A stretch of DNA of 24,000 nt from Hyphomicrobiales bacterium (lineage in GTDB: Bacteria > Pseudomonadota > Alphaproteobacteria > Rhizobiales > Phreatobacteraceae). Shown here in pieces: positions 16,891 to 18,389 of this stretch. The stretch is taken from the NCBI GenBank assembly GCA_017304475.1, contig JAFKKV010000015.1, positions 229,428 through 253,427 on the forward strand, read 5' to 3'. Position numbers and translations under genes: made by a program. Below the pieces are notes generated by a model that was not told where the DNA came from, made no database searches, and saw only the letters and a program-made list of their open reading frames with translations. How positions within the stretch are numbered: position 1 is the stretch's first letter; the number at the start of each line of letters is the position of its first letter.

Positions 16891-17991
16891 ATGACCCTGA
16901 TGGTGGCCGACACTGCGCTGATGCGGCGCGCCGACCTGTCCGATATCGGCCGGCTCGCGCTCGCCTTCGTCGACGGCGGGTCCCAGTGGTTCGACTGGGC
17001 GGCGCTGGAATCCGCGACGACCTATCAATTCCCCGACGAGACGGCCTTTGTCGGCGCCGTGCAGCAGGGCCTTCACGCCTCGCGTTTGGCCCTGCTGCCC
17101 AATCTCGGGCTGGCGGTCAGCCCGGTGAAGCTGATGACGCTCGGCGCGGCGGATCTCAGGCTGCTGCAGCGCATCGAGCATGGCGACAAGAGCGCCAAGG
17201 CCGCGGTGCAGCTGAAGCGCATCCTGGCCGATCATGCCCTGCTGACCGAGGAAGACCTGGCGCCGACCACCAGTTTCCTCGCCGATCTCGGCGTGGCCGA
17301 AGCGCCGGTCTTTCAGTTCCTCGGCTACGAGGGGCGCATGGCGATCTACGATCTCCTGCATCTGCCCGACGACCGCACCCCGCCCGGGATCGAGCTGCAG
17401 AAGGAGGCCGCCGCGTTTGCCCGCGCGCAGGGCCATACGCCGGCGGAATTCGCCGACTATTTCAAGTTCTTCCTGCAATATACCCGCAAGCTCGGCGGGC
17501 GCGCCGCCTCGCCGGAGGAGCGCCAGCTTCTGTGCGAGACCGCGCTCGCGGCCCTCGGACCCCGGCTGTTCGATCATCTCGACTGTCCGCAGGTCGGCGG
17601 CCTCGTCGCCCCGGCCGAGGTAGCGGAGGCGGTCAAGGACCGGCTCTCCTCCGGTCGCCGCATCGGCTTCACCCGGCTGTCGCTGGGCGCCCAGCAGATC
17701 ATAGAGAACACCACCTTCGAGGAAAACGGCGCCGACGACCCGGATGTCTTCGTCAGCGGTTATGTCAGTGCCGCCCAGAACCTGCTGCGCGCCGTGCCGG
17801 TGACCTTCGGCCTGATGGCGCAGGACGGCGCCTCCTGCGTCTTCCCGATCGAAGGCAGCGACCACGAGGCCGAGATCCAGCTCACCGCGGCCGGCCTGAT
17901 CACCCTGAACTGCTTCCGACGCAAACCCAAACGCAAGCCGGCAACGAGCGCGGGTCACGGCCGCGCCGAAGCCACGATGGAGAAAGTCTAA
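16891..17991 (+). CDS. hypothetical protein (366 aa), co-operonic with the reb genes
   Basis: Balanced amino-acid composition and high GC3 in this frame, whereas the overlapping 16986 frame is Arg/Gly/Pro junk. It starts 40 nt after the last reb gene. The stop overlaps the next start (TAATG). No family recognised. The C-terminus is basic (FRRKPKRKPA). Confidence 0.65.
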   Translation: MTLMVADTALMRRADLSDIGRLALAFVDGGSQWFDWAALESATTYQFPDETAFVGAVQQGLHASRLALLPNLGLAVSPVKLMTLGAADLRLLQRIEHGDKSAKAAVQLKRILADHALLTEEDLAPTTSFLADLGVAEAPVFQFLGYEGRMAIYDLLHLPDDRTPPGIELQKEAAAFARAQGHTPAEFADYFKFFLQYTRKLGGRAASPEERQLLCETALAALGPRLFDHLDCPQVGGLVAPAEVAEAVKDRLSSGRRIGFTRLSLGAQQIIENTTFEENGADDPDVFVSGYVSAAQNLLRAVPVTFGLMAQDGASCVFPIEGSDHEAEIQLTAAGLITLNCFRRKPKRKPATSAGHGRAEATMEKV

Positions 17992-18389
17992 TGCCGAAGC
18001 TCCGCAAGCCGAGAATTGCCCGCCGCGTGCCGACCGAGCGGGTCATCCCCGTCAGCAGCCGGCCGTCCCAGGAGGCTGCCGAACGCGCCCAGATCCGTGC
18101 ACGCGAGGCCGAGGCGGTCGCGTCCGAGGCCGTGCGCGAGGCCTCCGTCGGCGAGGGTCGCCTGGTGCCGGCCGAACGCGCCCGCGGCGAGCATGCCGAG
18201 GCGATCGCCGAGCGGGCGGTCCATCATACCGATCTCACGATCGAGCGGGTGGTCGACCATGCCGAGGCCATCGCCGAGCGCGCCGTCCACGCTGCCCAGG
18301 TGGCGCAGGAAAAGGCCGTCGACATCGCGCAATTGCGGGCGACCGAAGCAGTCGCCGCCACCGACCACATCATCGCCCAGACGCAATAG
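17991..18389 (+). CDS. hypothetical Ala/Glu-rich helical repeat protein (132 aa)
   Basis: The ATG at 17991 overlaps the previous TAA by 1 nt. High GC3. Basic N-terminus MPKLRKPRIARR. Internal 22-aa (66-nt) repeat HAEAIAERAVH at 18192-18224 and 18258-18290. No family recognised. Confidence 0.5.
   Translation: MPKLRKPRIARRVPTERVIPVSSRPSQEAAERAQIRAREAEAVASEAVREASVGEGRLVPAERARGEHAEAIAERAVHHTDLTIERVVDHAEAIAERAVHAAQVAQEKAVDIAQLRATEAVAATDHIIAQTQ

What the first reader, a model, noticed from the sequence alone, without database searches (positions are those of the whole stretch)
16891..18389. Two unrecognised proteins (366 aa and 132 aa) overlapping by TAATG directly downstream of the reb genes
Both frames show good coding character, and the alternative 467-aa frame (16986-18389) is Arg/Gly/Pro junk until the ATG at 17991. 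I cannot assign either protein to a known family. The 132-aa protein is Ala/Glu/Arg/Val-rich and predicted to be helical. It contains a 22-aa internal repeat (HAEAIAERAVH at 18192-18224 and 18258-18290). In Caedibacter a non-Reb protein (RebC) is needed for proper assembly or modification of the subunits, so these may be functional analogues. An in-operon activator (RebR) is described for Azorhizobium, and one of these could play that role, but I see no HTH motif.
Basis: inference. Interest (0 to 1): 0.6.

Follow-up and report, generated by a model that had tools for sequence, protein, structure and literature searches.

The report
R-body cluster accessory protein pair
The two genes are real: the larger one is a known but uncharacterised protein family (HP1.1) found almost only next to one type of R-body gene cluster, and the smaller one is its fast-evolving helical partner, so together they are good candidates for the long-sought helper or payload of this membrane-piercing bacterial device.

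Summary

- **The 366-aa protein is not unknown.** It is HP1.1, the ~360-aa hypothetical protein that defines the "Group 1" reb synteny of Raymann et al. 2013. In 62 of 69 informative genome loci its homologues lie directly downstream of Reb genes.
- **It has no recognisable family or fold.** It has no Pfam or NCBIfam family. A very confident AlphaFold model (pLDDT 94) matches no PDB or viral fold.
- **New here, fusions.** About a third of the best family representatives carry an N-terminal DUF4157/eCIS_core domain, a marker of injected effectors. All three such loci with context still lie inside reb clusters.
- **New here, the 132-aa protein.** It is the local form of a previously unrecognised, fast-evolving Ala/Glu/Gln-rich helical protein. 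Its gene starts at or just after the HP1.1 stop codon in 65 of 72 clusters and is occasionally fused in frame to HP1.1.
- **A regulatory role is unlikely.** A conserved σ54-type activator gene flanks these clusters.

My best reading (about 0.4) is a two-part module that rides on the R-body as a passenger or effector. The main rival is an assembly factor like RebC. Function remains untested.

The parts
16891..17991 (+). HP1.1-family protein, 366 aa: the conserved non-Reb accessory protein of Group 1 reb clusters. It is a globular alpha/beta protein with no known fold.
   Evidence: - ORF and GC3 of 0.87.
- dN/dS 0.086 and 0.099.
- 124 homologues, all annotated hypothetical, and 348 representative clusters.
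- Synteny with Reb genes in 62 of 69 loci.
- AF2 model with pLDDT 94.2; no PDB or BFVD fold match.
- Literature identity with HP1.1.
17991..18389 (+). 132-aa partner protein: a basic N-terminus (MPKLRKPRIARR) followed by Ala/Glu/Arg/Val-rich amphipathic helices with an 11/22-residue repeat. It is translationally coupled to HP1.1.
   Evidence: - TAATG overlap.
- dN/dS 0.071 over the full length against L166.
- Hydrophobic periodicity at 3.6 residues, z = 5.6, with identity autocorrelation peaks at lags 22 and 11.
- Only Phreatobacter-lineage homologues in the indexed protein search of 5.8 billion sequences.
- Direct similarity to Caulobacteraceae positional counterparts, E = 5e-14 and 7e-9 in a 66-sequence database.
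- Positional counterparts in 65 of 72 clusters.
17978..17982 (+). GGAGA Shine-Dalgarno-like motif for the 132-aa ORF, lying inside the 3' end of the HP1.1 gene.
   Evidence: Sequence read directly. The motif is identical in P. stygius.
18192..18290 (+). Two copies of HAEAIAERAVH (18192-18224 and 18258-18290), part of a run of 11-residue units (AERAVH / IERVVD / AERAVH / QEKAVD / ATEAVA).
14190..16455 (+). Six Reb-domain genes: four canonical RebB genes, a 78-aa gene (HP1.4) and a 207-aa gene (HP1.3) with a Pro-rich linker and a repeated Ala-rich tail.
   Evidence: Pfam PF11747 hits with E from 2e-13 to 3.5e-31. Correspondence with HP1.3 and HP1.4 comes.
16500..16850 (+). 116-aa protein, HP1.2, encoded immediately upstream of HP1.1.
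   Evidence: - A homologue is adjacent to HP1.1 in 68 of 80 loci.
- Weak phmmer similarity to canonical Reb ORFs, E about 1e-4 to 1e-7.
- dN/dS 0.015.
18498..22163 (+). 1221-aa protein downstream, probably the last gene of the operon. It has a conserved ~800-aa N-terminal module with an NTase-like motif, and C-termini that vary between homologues.
   Evidence: No terminator-like site lies in the gap before it.
22248..23918 (-). σ54-type enhancer-binding protein with a C-terminal AraC-type HTH, the likely dedicated regulator of the cluster.
   Evidence: Pfam Sigma54_activ_2, AAA_lid_14 and HTH_18. A homologue with E < 1e-60 lies within 10 kb of HP1.1 in 55 of 80 loci.

Best explanation
**Identity.** 16891-17991 encodes HP1.1, the non-Reb accessory protein of Group 1 R-body gene clusters. 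17991-18389 encodes its translationally coupled partner, a fast-evolving amphipathic-helix "tail" protein.

**Proposed mechanism.**
1. Both genes are transcribed with the seven Reb-type genes upstream, probably under the neighbouring σ54-type activator (inferred).
2. The globular HP1.1 "head" and the helical tail act as one unit. This is inferred from the start/stop overlap and from natural in-frame fusions in other lineages.
3. The unit associates physically with the Reb polymer (inferred).
4. I think it most likely rides on or with the R-body as a passenger, meaning an effector or effector adaptor. It would be exposed or released when the ribbon unrolls and breaks a membrane.
5. The main support is that a third of the best family representatives carry DUF4157, the N-terminal domain that marks injected effectors of contractile injection systems.

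It is not a transcription factor.

**Status of each step.** Gene reality, family identity, linkage to reb, the three domain architectures and the absence of any known fold are shown. Binding to each other, binding to the R-body and any effector activity are inferred.
For: **Identity (near certain)**
- Size, lack of domains and gene order (Reb x4, 78-aa Reb-like, 207-aa Reb-like, 116 aa, 366 aa) match HP1.4, HP1.3, HP1.2 and HP1.1 of Raymann et al..
- Homologues occur in the same taxa, including Azospirillum plasmid p4, Xanthomonas, Burkholderia, Ralstonia syzygii and Stenotrophomonas.
- 62 of 69 informative loci have Reb genes directly upstream on the same strand.

**Head and tail act as one unit**
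- In 65 of 72 clusters an Ala/Gln/Glu-rich ORF of at least 70 aa starts at or just after the HP1.1 stop. In 35 of these there is a 4-nt ATGA/GTGA overlap.
- Four representative clusters have the tail fused in frame to the HP1.1 C-terminus. One fused tail matches, over the stretch read by eye, the separate 78-aa gene of locus L075.
- The tails form a similarity network of 336 pairs at E < 1e-4, against 0 pairs with shuffled or reversed targets.

**Effector-like reading**
- 49 of the 150 best family representatives have an N-terminal extension of at least 90 aa, and 48 of those contain HExxH.
- Pfam eCIS_core/DUF4157 passed its cutoff in 9 of 10 sampled.
- DUF4157 sits N-terminal to toxin domains in eCIS effectors (PMC8213781). 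It is found in 36% of eCIS toxins against 0.06% of other proteins (PMC11297309).
- All three independent fusion loci with context lie inside reb clusters, and none of 79 generic DUF4157 loci has Reb genes.
- The R-body toxin is unknown. Raymann et al. named these proteins as candidates for it.
- In P. aeruginosa the analogous conserved non-Reb protein RapA co-purifies with R-bodies (PMC8322103).
Against: - No experiment exists on any member of the family.
- HP1.1 is conserved like a core component (dN/dS about 0.09) and was seen only at reb loci or as orphans. It was never seen in eCIS, T6SS or other delivery contexts. Interchangeable toxin domains usually behave differently.
- The window's own protein has no DUF4157. 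No DUF4157 gene lies within 10 kb in the window or in the 80 plain genome loci.
- The role of DUF4157 is itself unknown. It may be a chaperone or a protease, which fits an assembly role equally well.
- The fused proteins lack the long disordered N-terminal loading sequence of eCIS cargo.
- The downstream 1221-aa modular protein is at least as good an effector candidate.
- Seven loci with at least 3 kb of upstream DNA carry HP1.1 with no Reb gene in the fetched locus (±10 kb).
Confidence: 0.4

Rival explanations
1. Assembly or maturation factor. HP1.1, with the helical protein acting as scaffold or spacer, guides the Reb subunits into an ordered, actuatable ribbon or modifies them covalently. 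It would do this without being a payload, as a functional analogue of RebC in Caedibacter or AZC_3784 in Azorhizobium. In the fused lineages the DUF4157 metallopeptidase-like domain would process Reb proteins.
For: - Linkage is strict and conservation is core-like, with a phylogeny reported to track the Reb genes.
- HP1.1 has many invariant polar residues, including D49, E50, Q58, D189, Q311 and D312 in the 33-sequence alignment and H62 in at least 90% of sequences, as expected for an enzyme or a fixed interface.
- Non-Reb proteins are needed for R-body formation in two systems. RebC is required for on-pathway assembly but is not incorporated (bioRxiv 10.64898/2026.05.21.725848). AZC_3784 is essential (PMC5527310).
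- DUF4157 carries HExxH.
Against: - HP1.1 has no detectable similarity to any chaperone, protease, transglutaminase or other enzyme fold.
- R-bodies form without HP1.1 in Group 2 and Caedibacter-type clusters.
- Where it has been studied, DUF4157 accompanies delivered effectors rather than structural maturation.
- The orphan HP1.1 plus tail pair in L075 persists with no reb genes within 10 kb.
Confidence: 0.3
2. Toxin-immunity pair. HP1.1 is a toxin that is active in the producer's cytoplasm unless neutralised. The small overlapping downstream gene encodes its cognate, fast-evolving immunity protein.
For: - A small gene overlapping the stop codon of a larger one, with rapid divergence of the small gene, is the usual layout of toxin-immunity modules.
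- DUF4157 fusions occur in a third of the best representatives.
- The pair persists as a two-gene orphan in L075.
Against: - Natural in-frame fusions of HP1.1 with the tail are not expected for a toxin and its antidote.
- The tails are low-complexity amphipathic repeats behind long Pro/Ala-rich linkers, not compact specific binders.
- HP1.1 is much more conserved than typical polymorphic toxin domains.
Confidence: 0.1
3. In-operon transcription regulator, analogous to RebR. This was one of the first reader's suggestions.
For: The only support is the precedent of an activator encoded inside the Azorhizobium reb operon and the basic N-terminus of the 132-aa protein.
Against: - RebR is a Crp/Fnr protein. 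Neither ORF has a cNMP-binding, HTH or any other DNA-binding domain in Pfam, NCBIfam or PHROGs.
- The HP1.1 model matches no known fold, regulators included.
- A σ54-type activator with an AraC HTH is a conserved neighbour of these clusters.
Confidence: 0.03
4. The 132-aa ORF is a lineage-specific, dispensable or decaying reading frame and not a working part of the system.
For: - The indexed search found only Phreatobacter-lineage homologues among 5.8 billion proteins.
- In the P. stygius genome record the frame is broken by a 1-bp deletion next to a G-run.
Against: - dN/dS is 0.071 over the full length against a third genome in which the ORF is intact, with an in-frame indel only.
- dN/dS is 0.055 in the half that P. 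stygius retains.
- A counterpart occupies the same position in 65 of 72 clusters and is fused to HP1.1 in some lineages.
Confidence: 0.03

Closest known systems
HP1.1 of the Group 1 reb synteny pattern (Raymann, Bobay, Doak, Lynch & Gribaldo 2013, G3; PMC3583457)
   Same: - About 360 aa with no conserved domain.
- Encoded next to HP1.2 (110-120 aa), HP1.3 (a Reb-like protein about twice normal length) and HP1.4 (a 60-80 aa Reb-like protein).
- Found in the same taxa and essentially only at reb loci.

The window's 366-aa protein is a member of this family.
   Different: Nothing separates the window's protein from the family. New here for the family are:
- a confident model with no known fold;
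- the DUF4157-fused and tail-fused architectures;
- the coupled tail gene;
- the conserved σ54-type regulator.
RapA (PA14_27680) of the Pseudomonas aeruginosa PA14 reb cluster (Group 2 type; PMC8322103)
   Same: RapA is a conserved non-Reb protein encoded in reb clusters. It co-purifies with R-bodies at levels similar to the structural subunits and contributes to virulence. This is the nearest experimental precedent for an R-body-associated passenger or component.
   Different: RapA belongs to the other, mutually exclusive synteny group. The Group 2 hypothetical proteins are about 205-220 aa. I could not obtain the RapA sequence, so homology was not tested.
RebC of Caedibacter taeniospiralis (type 51 R-body)
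   Same: RebC is a non-Reb-homologous protein encoded in the reb operon. [quoted passage not shown] It is a functional model for the assembly rival.
   Different: Raymann et al. found no homologue of the pKAP298 plasmid proteins in other Reb-bearing taxa. RebC is a small protein (own knowledge), whereas HP1.1 is 366 aa. No DUF4157 or tail partner was seen for RebC in the papers read.
DUF4157 (PF13699, eCIS_core) effectors of extracellular contractile injection systems, for example AlgoCIS Cgo1 and Cgo2
   Same: The architecture is DUF4157 at the N-terminal side and a variable effector domain at the C-terminus. About a third of the best HP1.1 representatives have exactly this layout, with HP1.1 in the effector position.
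   Different: - The window's protein lacks DUF4157.
- The fused relatives sit in reb clusters, not eCIS operons.
- They lack the long disordered N-terminal loading sequence.
- No sheath, tube or baseplate genes were seen nearby.
Amphipathic 11-mer repeat proteins that coat surfaces (apolipoproteins, phasins, perilipins)
   Same: The 132-aa protein and many of its positional counterparts show alpha-helical amphipathic periodicity of about 3.6 residues and 11/22-residue repeats. One counterpart gives sub-threshold hits to apolipoprotein and phasin models.
   Different: No hit reaches a Pfam threshold. The resemblance is in composition and periodicity only and gives no evidence of common descent or of lipid binding.

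Membership tests
HP1.1 family (Group 1 reb synteny, Raymann et al. 2013) | Protein of about 360 aa with no recognisable conserved domain | tested here: met
   366 aa. No hit in Pfam, NCBIfam or PHROGs, and no consistent weak Pfam hit across 116 members.
HP1.1 family (Group 1 reb synteny, Raymann et al. 2013) | Encoded beside HP1.2 (110-120 aa), HP1.3 (long Reb-like) and HP1.4 (60-80 aa Reb-like) at a reb locus | tested here: met
   The window order is RebB x4, 78 aa, 207 aa, 116 aa, 366 aa. The same order is seen in related loci, and HP1.2 is adjacent in 68 of 80.
HP1.1 family (Group 1 reb synteny, Raymann et al. 2013) | Sequence homology to the proteins of the taxa in which the family was defined (Azospirillum brasilense plasmid, Xanthomonas, Burkholderia, Ralstonia syzygii, Stenotrophomonas) | tested here: met
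   E-values from 1e-55 to 1e-122 at 38-57% identity over more than 93% of the length.
HP1.1 family (Group 1 reb synteny, Raymann et al. 2013) | Present only in Reb-harbouring genomes | tested here: inconclusive
   62 of 69 loci with enough upstream DNA have Reb genes adjacent. Seven of those 69 loci have none in the fetched locus, and an eighth (L019) has too little upstream DNA to judge. Whole genomes could not be checked.
RebR-type activator (Crp/Fnr superfamily, Azorhizobium AZC_3788) | N-terminal cyclic-nucleotide-binding-like domain and C-terminal Crp-type HTH | tested here: not met
   Neither ORF has any Pfam or NCBIfam hit. The HP1.1 model matches no known fold.
DUF4157 / eCIS_core effector proteins | PF13699 domain with an HExxH motif N-terminal to the effector domain | tested here: not met
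   The domain is absent from the window's protein and from every ORF of the window. It is present in 48 of the 150 best family representatives.
DUF4157 / eCIS_core effector proteins | Encoded in or next to a contractile injection system operon (sheath, tube, baseplate, AAA+ ATPase) | tested here: not met
   The fused relatives lie in reb clusters. Their neighbours include TPR, amine oxidase, HhH-GPD and σ54-activator genes.
RebC-like assembly factor | Required for ordered R-body assembly but not incorporated into the final structure | not testable with these tools
   This needs deletion mutants, electron microscopy and mass spectrometry. Only the literature description is available.
Toxin-immunity module | Small cognate gene immediately downstream, often overlapping the toxin gene | tested here: met
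   1-nt overlap in the window. 4-nt overlap in 35 of 65 clusters.
Toxin-immunity module | Toxin and immunity are separate polypeptides, and the toxin is harmful without immunity | tested here: inconclusive
   In-frame HP1.1-tail fusions exist in 4 representative clusters, which argues against this family. Toxicity is not testable here.
Apolipoprotein/phasin-type amphipathic repeat proteins (for the 132-aa protein) | Match to the family profile | tested here: not met
   No Pfam hit for the 132-aa protein at E up to 1. One counterpart gives sub-threshold hits only.
Apolipoprotein/phasin-type amphipathic repeat proteins (for the 132-aa protein) | Tandem 11/22-residue amphipathic helical repeats | tested here: met
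   The hydrophobic moment peaks at 3.6 residues (z = 5.6), there is no signal at 3.5, and identity autocorrelation peaks at lags 22 and 11.

The most novel reading that the evidence does not exclude
R-bodies and phage-tail-like contractile injection systems are two unrelated membrane-puncturing devices. In this reading they share an effector-handling domain (DUF4157). HP1.1, tethered by its helical tail protein, would be the conserved warhead of Group 1 R-bodies, that is, the long-sought R-body-associated toxin or host-acting factor. It would have a fold not yet seen in any solved structure.
Probability: 0.2. Interest if true: 0.8.

Novelty: new member of a known kind. Interest (0 to 1): 0.5.

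Why it matters
**The open question.** R-bodies have been known for more than 70 years. R-body production is needed for killing but is not enough on its own, and the toxin or other partner has never been identified (PMC3583457).

**Where this pair fits.** Group 1 clusters occur in plant and human pathogens (Burkholderia pseudomallei, B. gladioli, Xanthomonas, Ralstonia, Stenotrophomonas) and in plant-growth promoters such as Azospirillum.

**What this work adds.**
- HP1.1 has a hidden, translationally coupled partner.
- A third of the best family representatives carry the effector-marker domain DUF4157.
- A σ54-type activator and a large modular NTase-like protein complete the cluster.

**Experiments this makes possible.**
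- Does the pair co-purify with R-bodies?
- Is it needed for assembly or for killing?
- Is HP1.1 toxic when expressed or delivered?

**Other uses.** It nominates a confidently predicted fold, unmatched in the libraries I could search, for structure determination. It also offers possible cargo-attachment parts for engineered R-body "pistons".

Tried and rejected
- **Domain libraries:** Pfam, NCBIfam and PHROGs scans of both proteins and of the 1221-aa and 116-aa neighbours gave nothing usable.
- **Family-wide Pfam scan:** A permissive scan of all 116 family members gave no recurring weak hit.
- **PDB by sequence:** A profile search of PDB sequences gave nothing below E = 1.
- **Fold searches:** Foldseek of the HP1.1 model against PDB and BFVD gave no match below E = 0.1 and TM-scores of 0.20 or less.
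- **Metagenome scan:** The scan meant to collect DUF4157-HP1.1 fusions was driven by the HExxH motif and returned mostly generic DUF4157 proteins. Only one new fusion locus was gained. The other 79 loci served as a control, and none has Reb genes.
- **DUF4157 in trans:** A separate DUF4157 gene near plain clusters was looked for and not found.
- **Tail pairing with HP1.3:** The idea that the 132-aa tail resembles, and pairs with, the Ala-rich tail of the 207-aa Reb-like protein found no sequence similarity.
- **Caspase-like dyad:** The idea that the C-terminus of the 1221-aa protein carries a caspase-like His/Cys dyad was weakened. Neither residue is conserved in 90% or more of homologues.
- **σ54 promoter:** A consensus search gave a plausibly placed site at 13993-14007, but the number of matches was no higher than in shuffled sequence.
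- **Orphan loci:** Orphan HP1.1 loci were checked for another delivery system and showed only housekeeping neighbours.
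Full report
**1. Observation**

ORF 16891-17991 (366 aa) ends in TAA, and the last A of that stop is the first base of the ATG of ORF 17991-18389 (132 aa). A GGAGA motif lies 8 nt before that ATG.

Third-position GC is 0.87 and 0.86 in the proposed frames. It is 0.46 in the 16986-17990 part of the alternative 467-aa frame, so that stretch is not coding. HAEAIAERAVH occurs at exactly the stated coordinates, twice, 22 residues apart.

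Comparison with two relatives shows purifying selection on both genes.
- Against Phreatobacter stygius (locus L081), dN/dS is 0.086 for the large gene. It is 0.36 for the N-terminal half and 0.055 for the C-terminal half of the small one. Four of the five other frames tested give values above 1, and the antisense frame that shares third positions gives 0.12.
- Against a Phreatobacter MAG (L166), the small ORF is intact at 131 aa and overlaps the upstream stop in the same way. It differs by 42 synonymous and 12 non-synonymous changes plus one in-frame codon indel, giving dN/dS 0.071.

The window itself probably comes from a Hyphomicrobiales MAG close to Phreatobacter.

**2. What the 366-aa protein is**

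It has no hit in Pfam, NCBIfam or PHROGs. It does have 124 full-length homologues, all annotated "hypothetical". They come from Alpha-, Beta- and Gammaproteobacteria, including Azospirillum, Caulobacter, Bradyrhizobium, Burkholderia pseudomallei, B. gladioli, Ralstonia syzygii, Xanthomonas, Stenotrophomonas and Hydrogenophaga.

I fetched 80 genome loci around such homologues and scanned them with a Reb profile built from the window's own Reb proteins.
- 62 of the 69 loci with at least 3 kb of upstream DNA have Reb genes, usually six, directly upstream on the same strand.
- 68 of 80 have a homologue of the window's 116-aa protein immediately upstream.

This is the "Group 1 synteny pattern" of Raymann et al. 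2013 (PMC3583457). That pattern consists of HP1.1 (~360 aa), HP1.2 (110-120 aa), HP1.3 (a Reb-like protein about twice normal length) and HP1.4 (60-80 aa, Reb-like). [quoted passage not shown] A 2026 survey explicitly left HP1.1 aside (PMC13430693).

So the large protein is a member of a known family of unknown function. RefSeq annotation of Azospirillum argentinense plasmid p4 shows the same operon: six "RebB family R body protein" genes followed by four hypothetical genes. One of the loci (L055) is from Hydrogenophaga taeniospiralis, a classical R-body producer.

**3. Structure**

With a 116-sequence alignment, AlphaFold2 gives a very confident model (pLDDT 94.2, pTM 0.89). N- and C-terminal beta strands flank a helical middle region.
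- Foldseek finds nothing in the PDB (best E = 0.23, TM ≤ 0.16) or among viral models (best E = 0.14).
- A profile search of PDB sequences is also empty.

The fold is therefore unmatched in what I could search, but I cannot call it new.

**4. Three architectures**

An exhaustive profile search of 1.84 billion representative proteins found 348 clusters with E ≤ 1e-3. The best 150 break down as follows:
- 87 are plain, like the window's protein.
- 49 have an N-terminal extension of at least 90 aa, and 48 of these contain HExxH.
- 4 have a C-terminal Ala/Glu-rich helical extension.
- 10 are fragments.

Pfam identifies the N-terminal extension as eCIS_core/DUF4157 in 9 of 10 sampled proteins. DUF4157 is the domain found N-terminal to toxin domains of extracellular contractile injection systems, and sometimes in T6SS effectors. 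Its own role, whether loading, chaperoning or processing, is unresolved (PMC8213781, PMC11297309, bioRxiv 10.64898/2026.05.27.728243).

All three independent fusion loci for which I obtained context (L082, L083/L084, L085) lie inside reb clusters, directly after an HP1.2 homologue. In contrast, none of 79 generic DUF4157 loci has Reb genes. I found no paper in the searchable library that mentions DUF4157 together with RebB or R-bodies. The window's own protein, and the plain clusters in general, have no DUF4157 in cis or nearby.

**5. What the 132-aa protein is**

By indexed search it has homologues only in its own lineage, so it looks like an orphan. It is not one by position.

In 65 of the 72 reb-cluster loci that yielded a candidate ORF, an ORF of at least 70 aa with at least 35% Ala+Gln+Glu starts at or just after the HP1.1 stop (74 loci had at least 300 bp of downstream sequence):
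- 35 have a 4-nt ATGA/GTGA overlap.
- The window has a 1-nt overlap, and the Phreatobacter MAG L166, which was not part of this scan, has the same 1-nt overlap.
- 18 start within 40 nt of the stop.

The two fusion loci examined also keep such a gene.

These "tails" form one similarity network of 336 pairs at E < 1e-4, against none with shuffled or reversed targets. The window's protein links directly only to Caulobacteraceae versions (E = 5e-14 and 7e-9). Those share its basic N-terminus, M-x-x-RKPRKPR against MPKLRKPRIARR. The connection onward to the rest of the network rests on a single weak edge. Homology across the whole set is therefore probable, not proven.

The window's protein shows alpha-helical amphipathic periodicity at 3.6 residues (z = 5.6) and none at the 3.5 of heptad coiled coils. 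It has 11/22-residue repeats. About half of the counterparts show the same periodicity. None matches a Pfam family.

The four C-terminally extended HP1.1 proteins are in-frame fusions with exactly this kind of tail. The tail of P0261 matches, over the stretch I compared by eye, the separate 78-aa gene downstream of the orphan HP1.1 in L075. Coupling together with these gene fusions is the basis for treating HP1.1 and the tail as one functional unit.

In the P. stygius genome record the frame is split by a 1-bp deletion beside a G-run. This could be a sequencing error or recent decay.

**6. Surroundings**

- **Regulator:** The ORF at 22248-23918 on the minus strand is a σ54-type enhancer-binding protein with an AraC-type HTH. 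Homologues with E < 1e-60 lie within 10 kb of HP1.1 in 55 of 80 loci, and also in P. stygius, L083 and L167. The regulator slot is therefore filled, whereas RebR of Azorhizobium is a Crp/Fnr protein unrelated to either ORF.
- **Operon structure:** No terminator-like site lies in an intergenic gap between the first reb gene and the end of the 1221-aa gene.
- **The 1221-aa protein:** It belongs to another all-hypothetical family with a conserved ~800-aa N-terminal module and variable C-termini. Some of those C-termini give sub-threshold papain-like protease hits. The module carries invariant K-G-G-R-A … D-W-D … K-x-E-x-I-D residues, typical of Pol-β-type nucleotidyltransferases. A confident model (pLDDT 90.3) gives weak Foldseek hits (E from 3e-3 to 0.1), most of them to NTase-fold proteins (Rel, giant-virus poly(A) polymerases, Pol µ/β, GLD-2) and one to a SAVED-CHAT protease. 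A homologue is present downstream in 31 of 80 loci, strongly in 14.

**7. Mechanism and rivals**

*Shown:* two real, co-oriented, coupled genes at the 3' side of a Reb structural gene block; family-wide linkage to such blocks; three architectures; no DNA-binding features; a conserved separate regulator.

*Inferred:* the head and tail bind each other, and the unit is physically associated with the R-body.

I favour a passenger or effector-adaptor role (about 0.4) for three reasons:
- HP1.1 sits in the effector position of DUF4157 proteins in a third of the best family representatives.
- The R-body partner toxin is still missing.
- The analogous Group 2 protein RapA co-purifies with R-bodies.

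The main rival is an assembly or maturation factor like RebC or AZC_3784 (about 0.3). It is favoured by core-like conservation, exclusive reb linkage and the protease-like nature of DUF4157. A toxin-immunity pair (about 0.1) fits the gene overlap but not the natural fusions or the low-complexity tails. A regulator role (0.03) and a non-functional small ORF (0.03) are poorly supported.

**8. Novelty and interest**

The large protein is a new member of a family described in 2013. The hypotheses that it is an assembly factor or the toxin were already voiced then. As far as the searchable literature shows, four things are new:
- the coupled, sometimes fused, tail family to which the 132-aa protein belongs;
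- the frequent DUF4157 fusion inside reb clusters;
- the confident model without a known fold;
- the extended conserved cluster, with the σ54-type activator and the NTase-like modular protein.

Nothing here is experimentally established. The finding is of moderate interest, mainly because it turns an old open question into specific experiments.

Noticed in passing
window 18498-22163 (+): The 1221-aa protein belongs to a modular all-hypothetical family.
- The ~800-aa N-terminal module is conserved and carries invariant KGGRA…DWD…KxExID residues, a Pol-β nucleotidyltransferase-like motif.
- C-termini vary between homologues, and some give sub-threshold papain-like protease (C70/C39_2) hits.
- The AF2 model has pLDDT 90.3. 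Its weak Foldseek hits are mostly to NTase-fold proteins, plus SAVED-CHAT.

It may be an R-body-linked effector or signalling enzyme.
   Followed up: partly
window 22248-23918 (-): A σ54-type enhancer-binding protein with an AraC-type HTH. Its homologue lies within 10 kb of HP1.1 in 55 of 80 related loci, so it is probably the dedicated regulator of Group 1 reb clusters. The papers I read do not mention it.
   Followed up: partly
window 13993-14007 (+): GGGCAACGGCTTTGC resembles a σ54 -24/-12 promoter (GG-N10-GC spacing correct, 2 mismatches). It lies about 185 bp upstream of the first reb gene. The match count in the window is no higher than in shuffled sequence, and conservation in relatives was not checked.
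   Followed up: no
window 13443-13479 and 13562-13598: A 37-nt inverted repeat, 97% complementary, with arms 82 nt apart. It lies in the intergenic region between the TetR gene and the reb cluster and may be a small mobile or REP-like element.
   Followed up: no
L081 11101-11498 (Phreatobacter stygius CP039690): The ortholog of the 132-aa ORF is split by a 1-bp deletion next to a G-run. GenBank annotates only the 74-aa C-terminal part. The ORF is intact in the window and in a Phreatobacter MAG, L166. This is either a sequencing error or recent decay.
   Followed up: partly
window 15832-16455 (+), repeats starting at about 16150 and 16300: The 207-aa Reb-like protein (HP1.3) has a RebB domain, a Pro-rich linker and a 50-residue tandem duplication of an Ala-rich helical segment (AMIAAAFAEGEAAIGILQAEAKG… / AVIAAAFAEGGAAIGVLQAEAKG…). 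It shows no sequence similarity to the 132-aa tail family.
   Followed up: partly
window 16500-16850 (+): The 116-aa protein (HP1.2) has no Pfam RebB hit. It does give weak phmmer matches (E about 1e-4 to 1e-7) to canonical Reb ORFs in many loci, and it is the most constrained gene of the cluster (dN/dS 0.015). It is probably a very divergent Reb.
   Followed up: partly
L066 (Leptothoe spongobia, cyanobacterium) and L019 (MAG labelled Actinomycetota): A complete Group 1 cluster, including HP1.2, HP1.1 and a tail gene, occurs in a sponge-associated cyanobacterium with low GC3, which suggests horizontal transfer. An orphan HP1.1 lies on a contig attributed to Actinomycetota.
   Followed up: no
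L082 8891-10396: In one DUF4157-HP1.1 fusion cluster the gene after the tail encodes a flavin-containing amine oxidase (Pfam E = 1e-37). It could be just a neighbour or an H2O2-generating partner.
   Followed up: no
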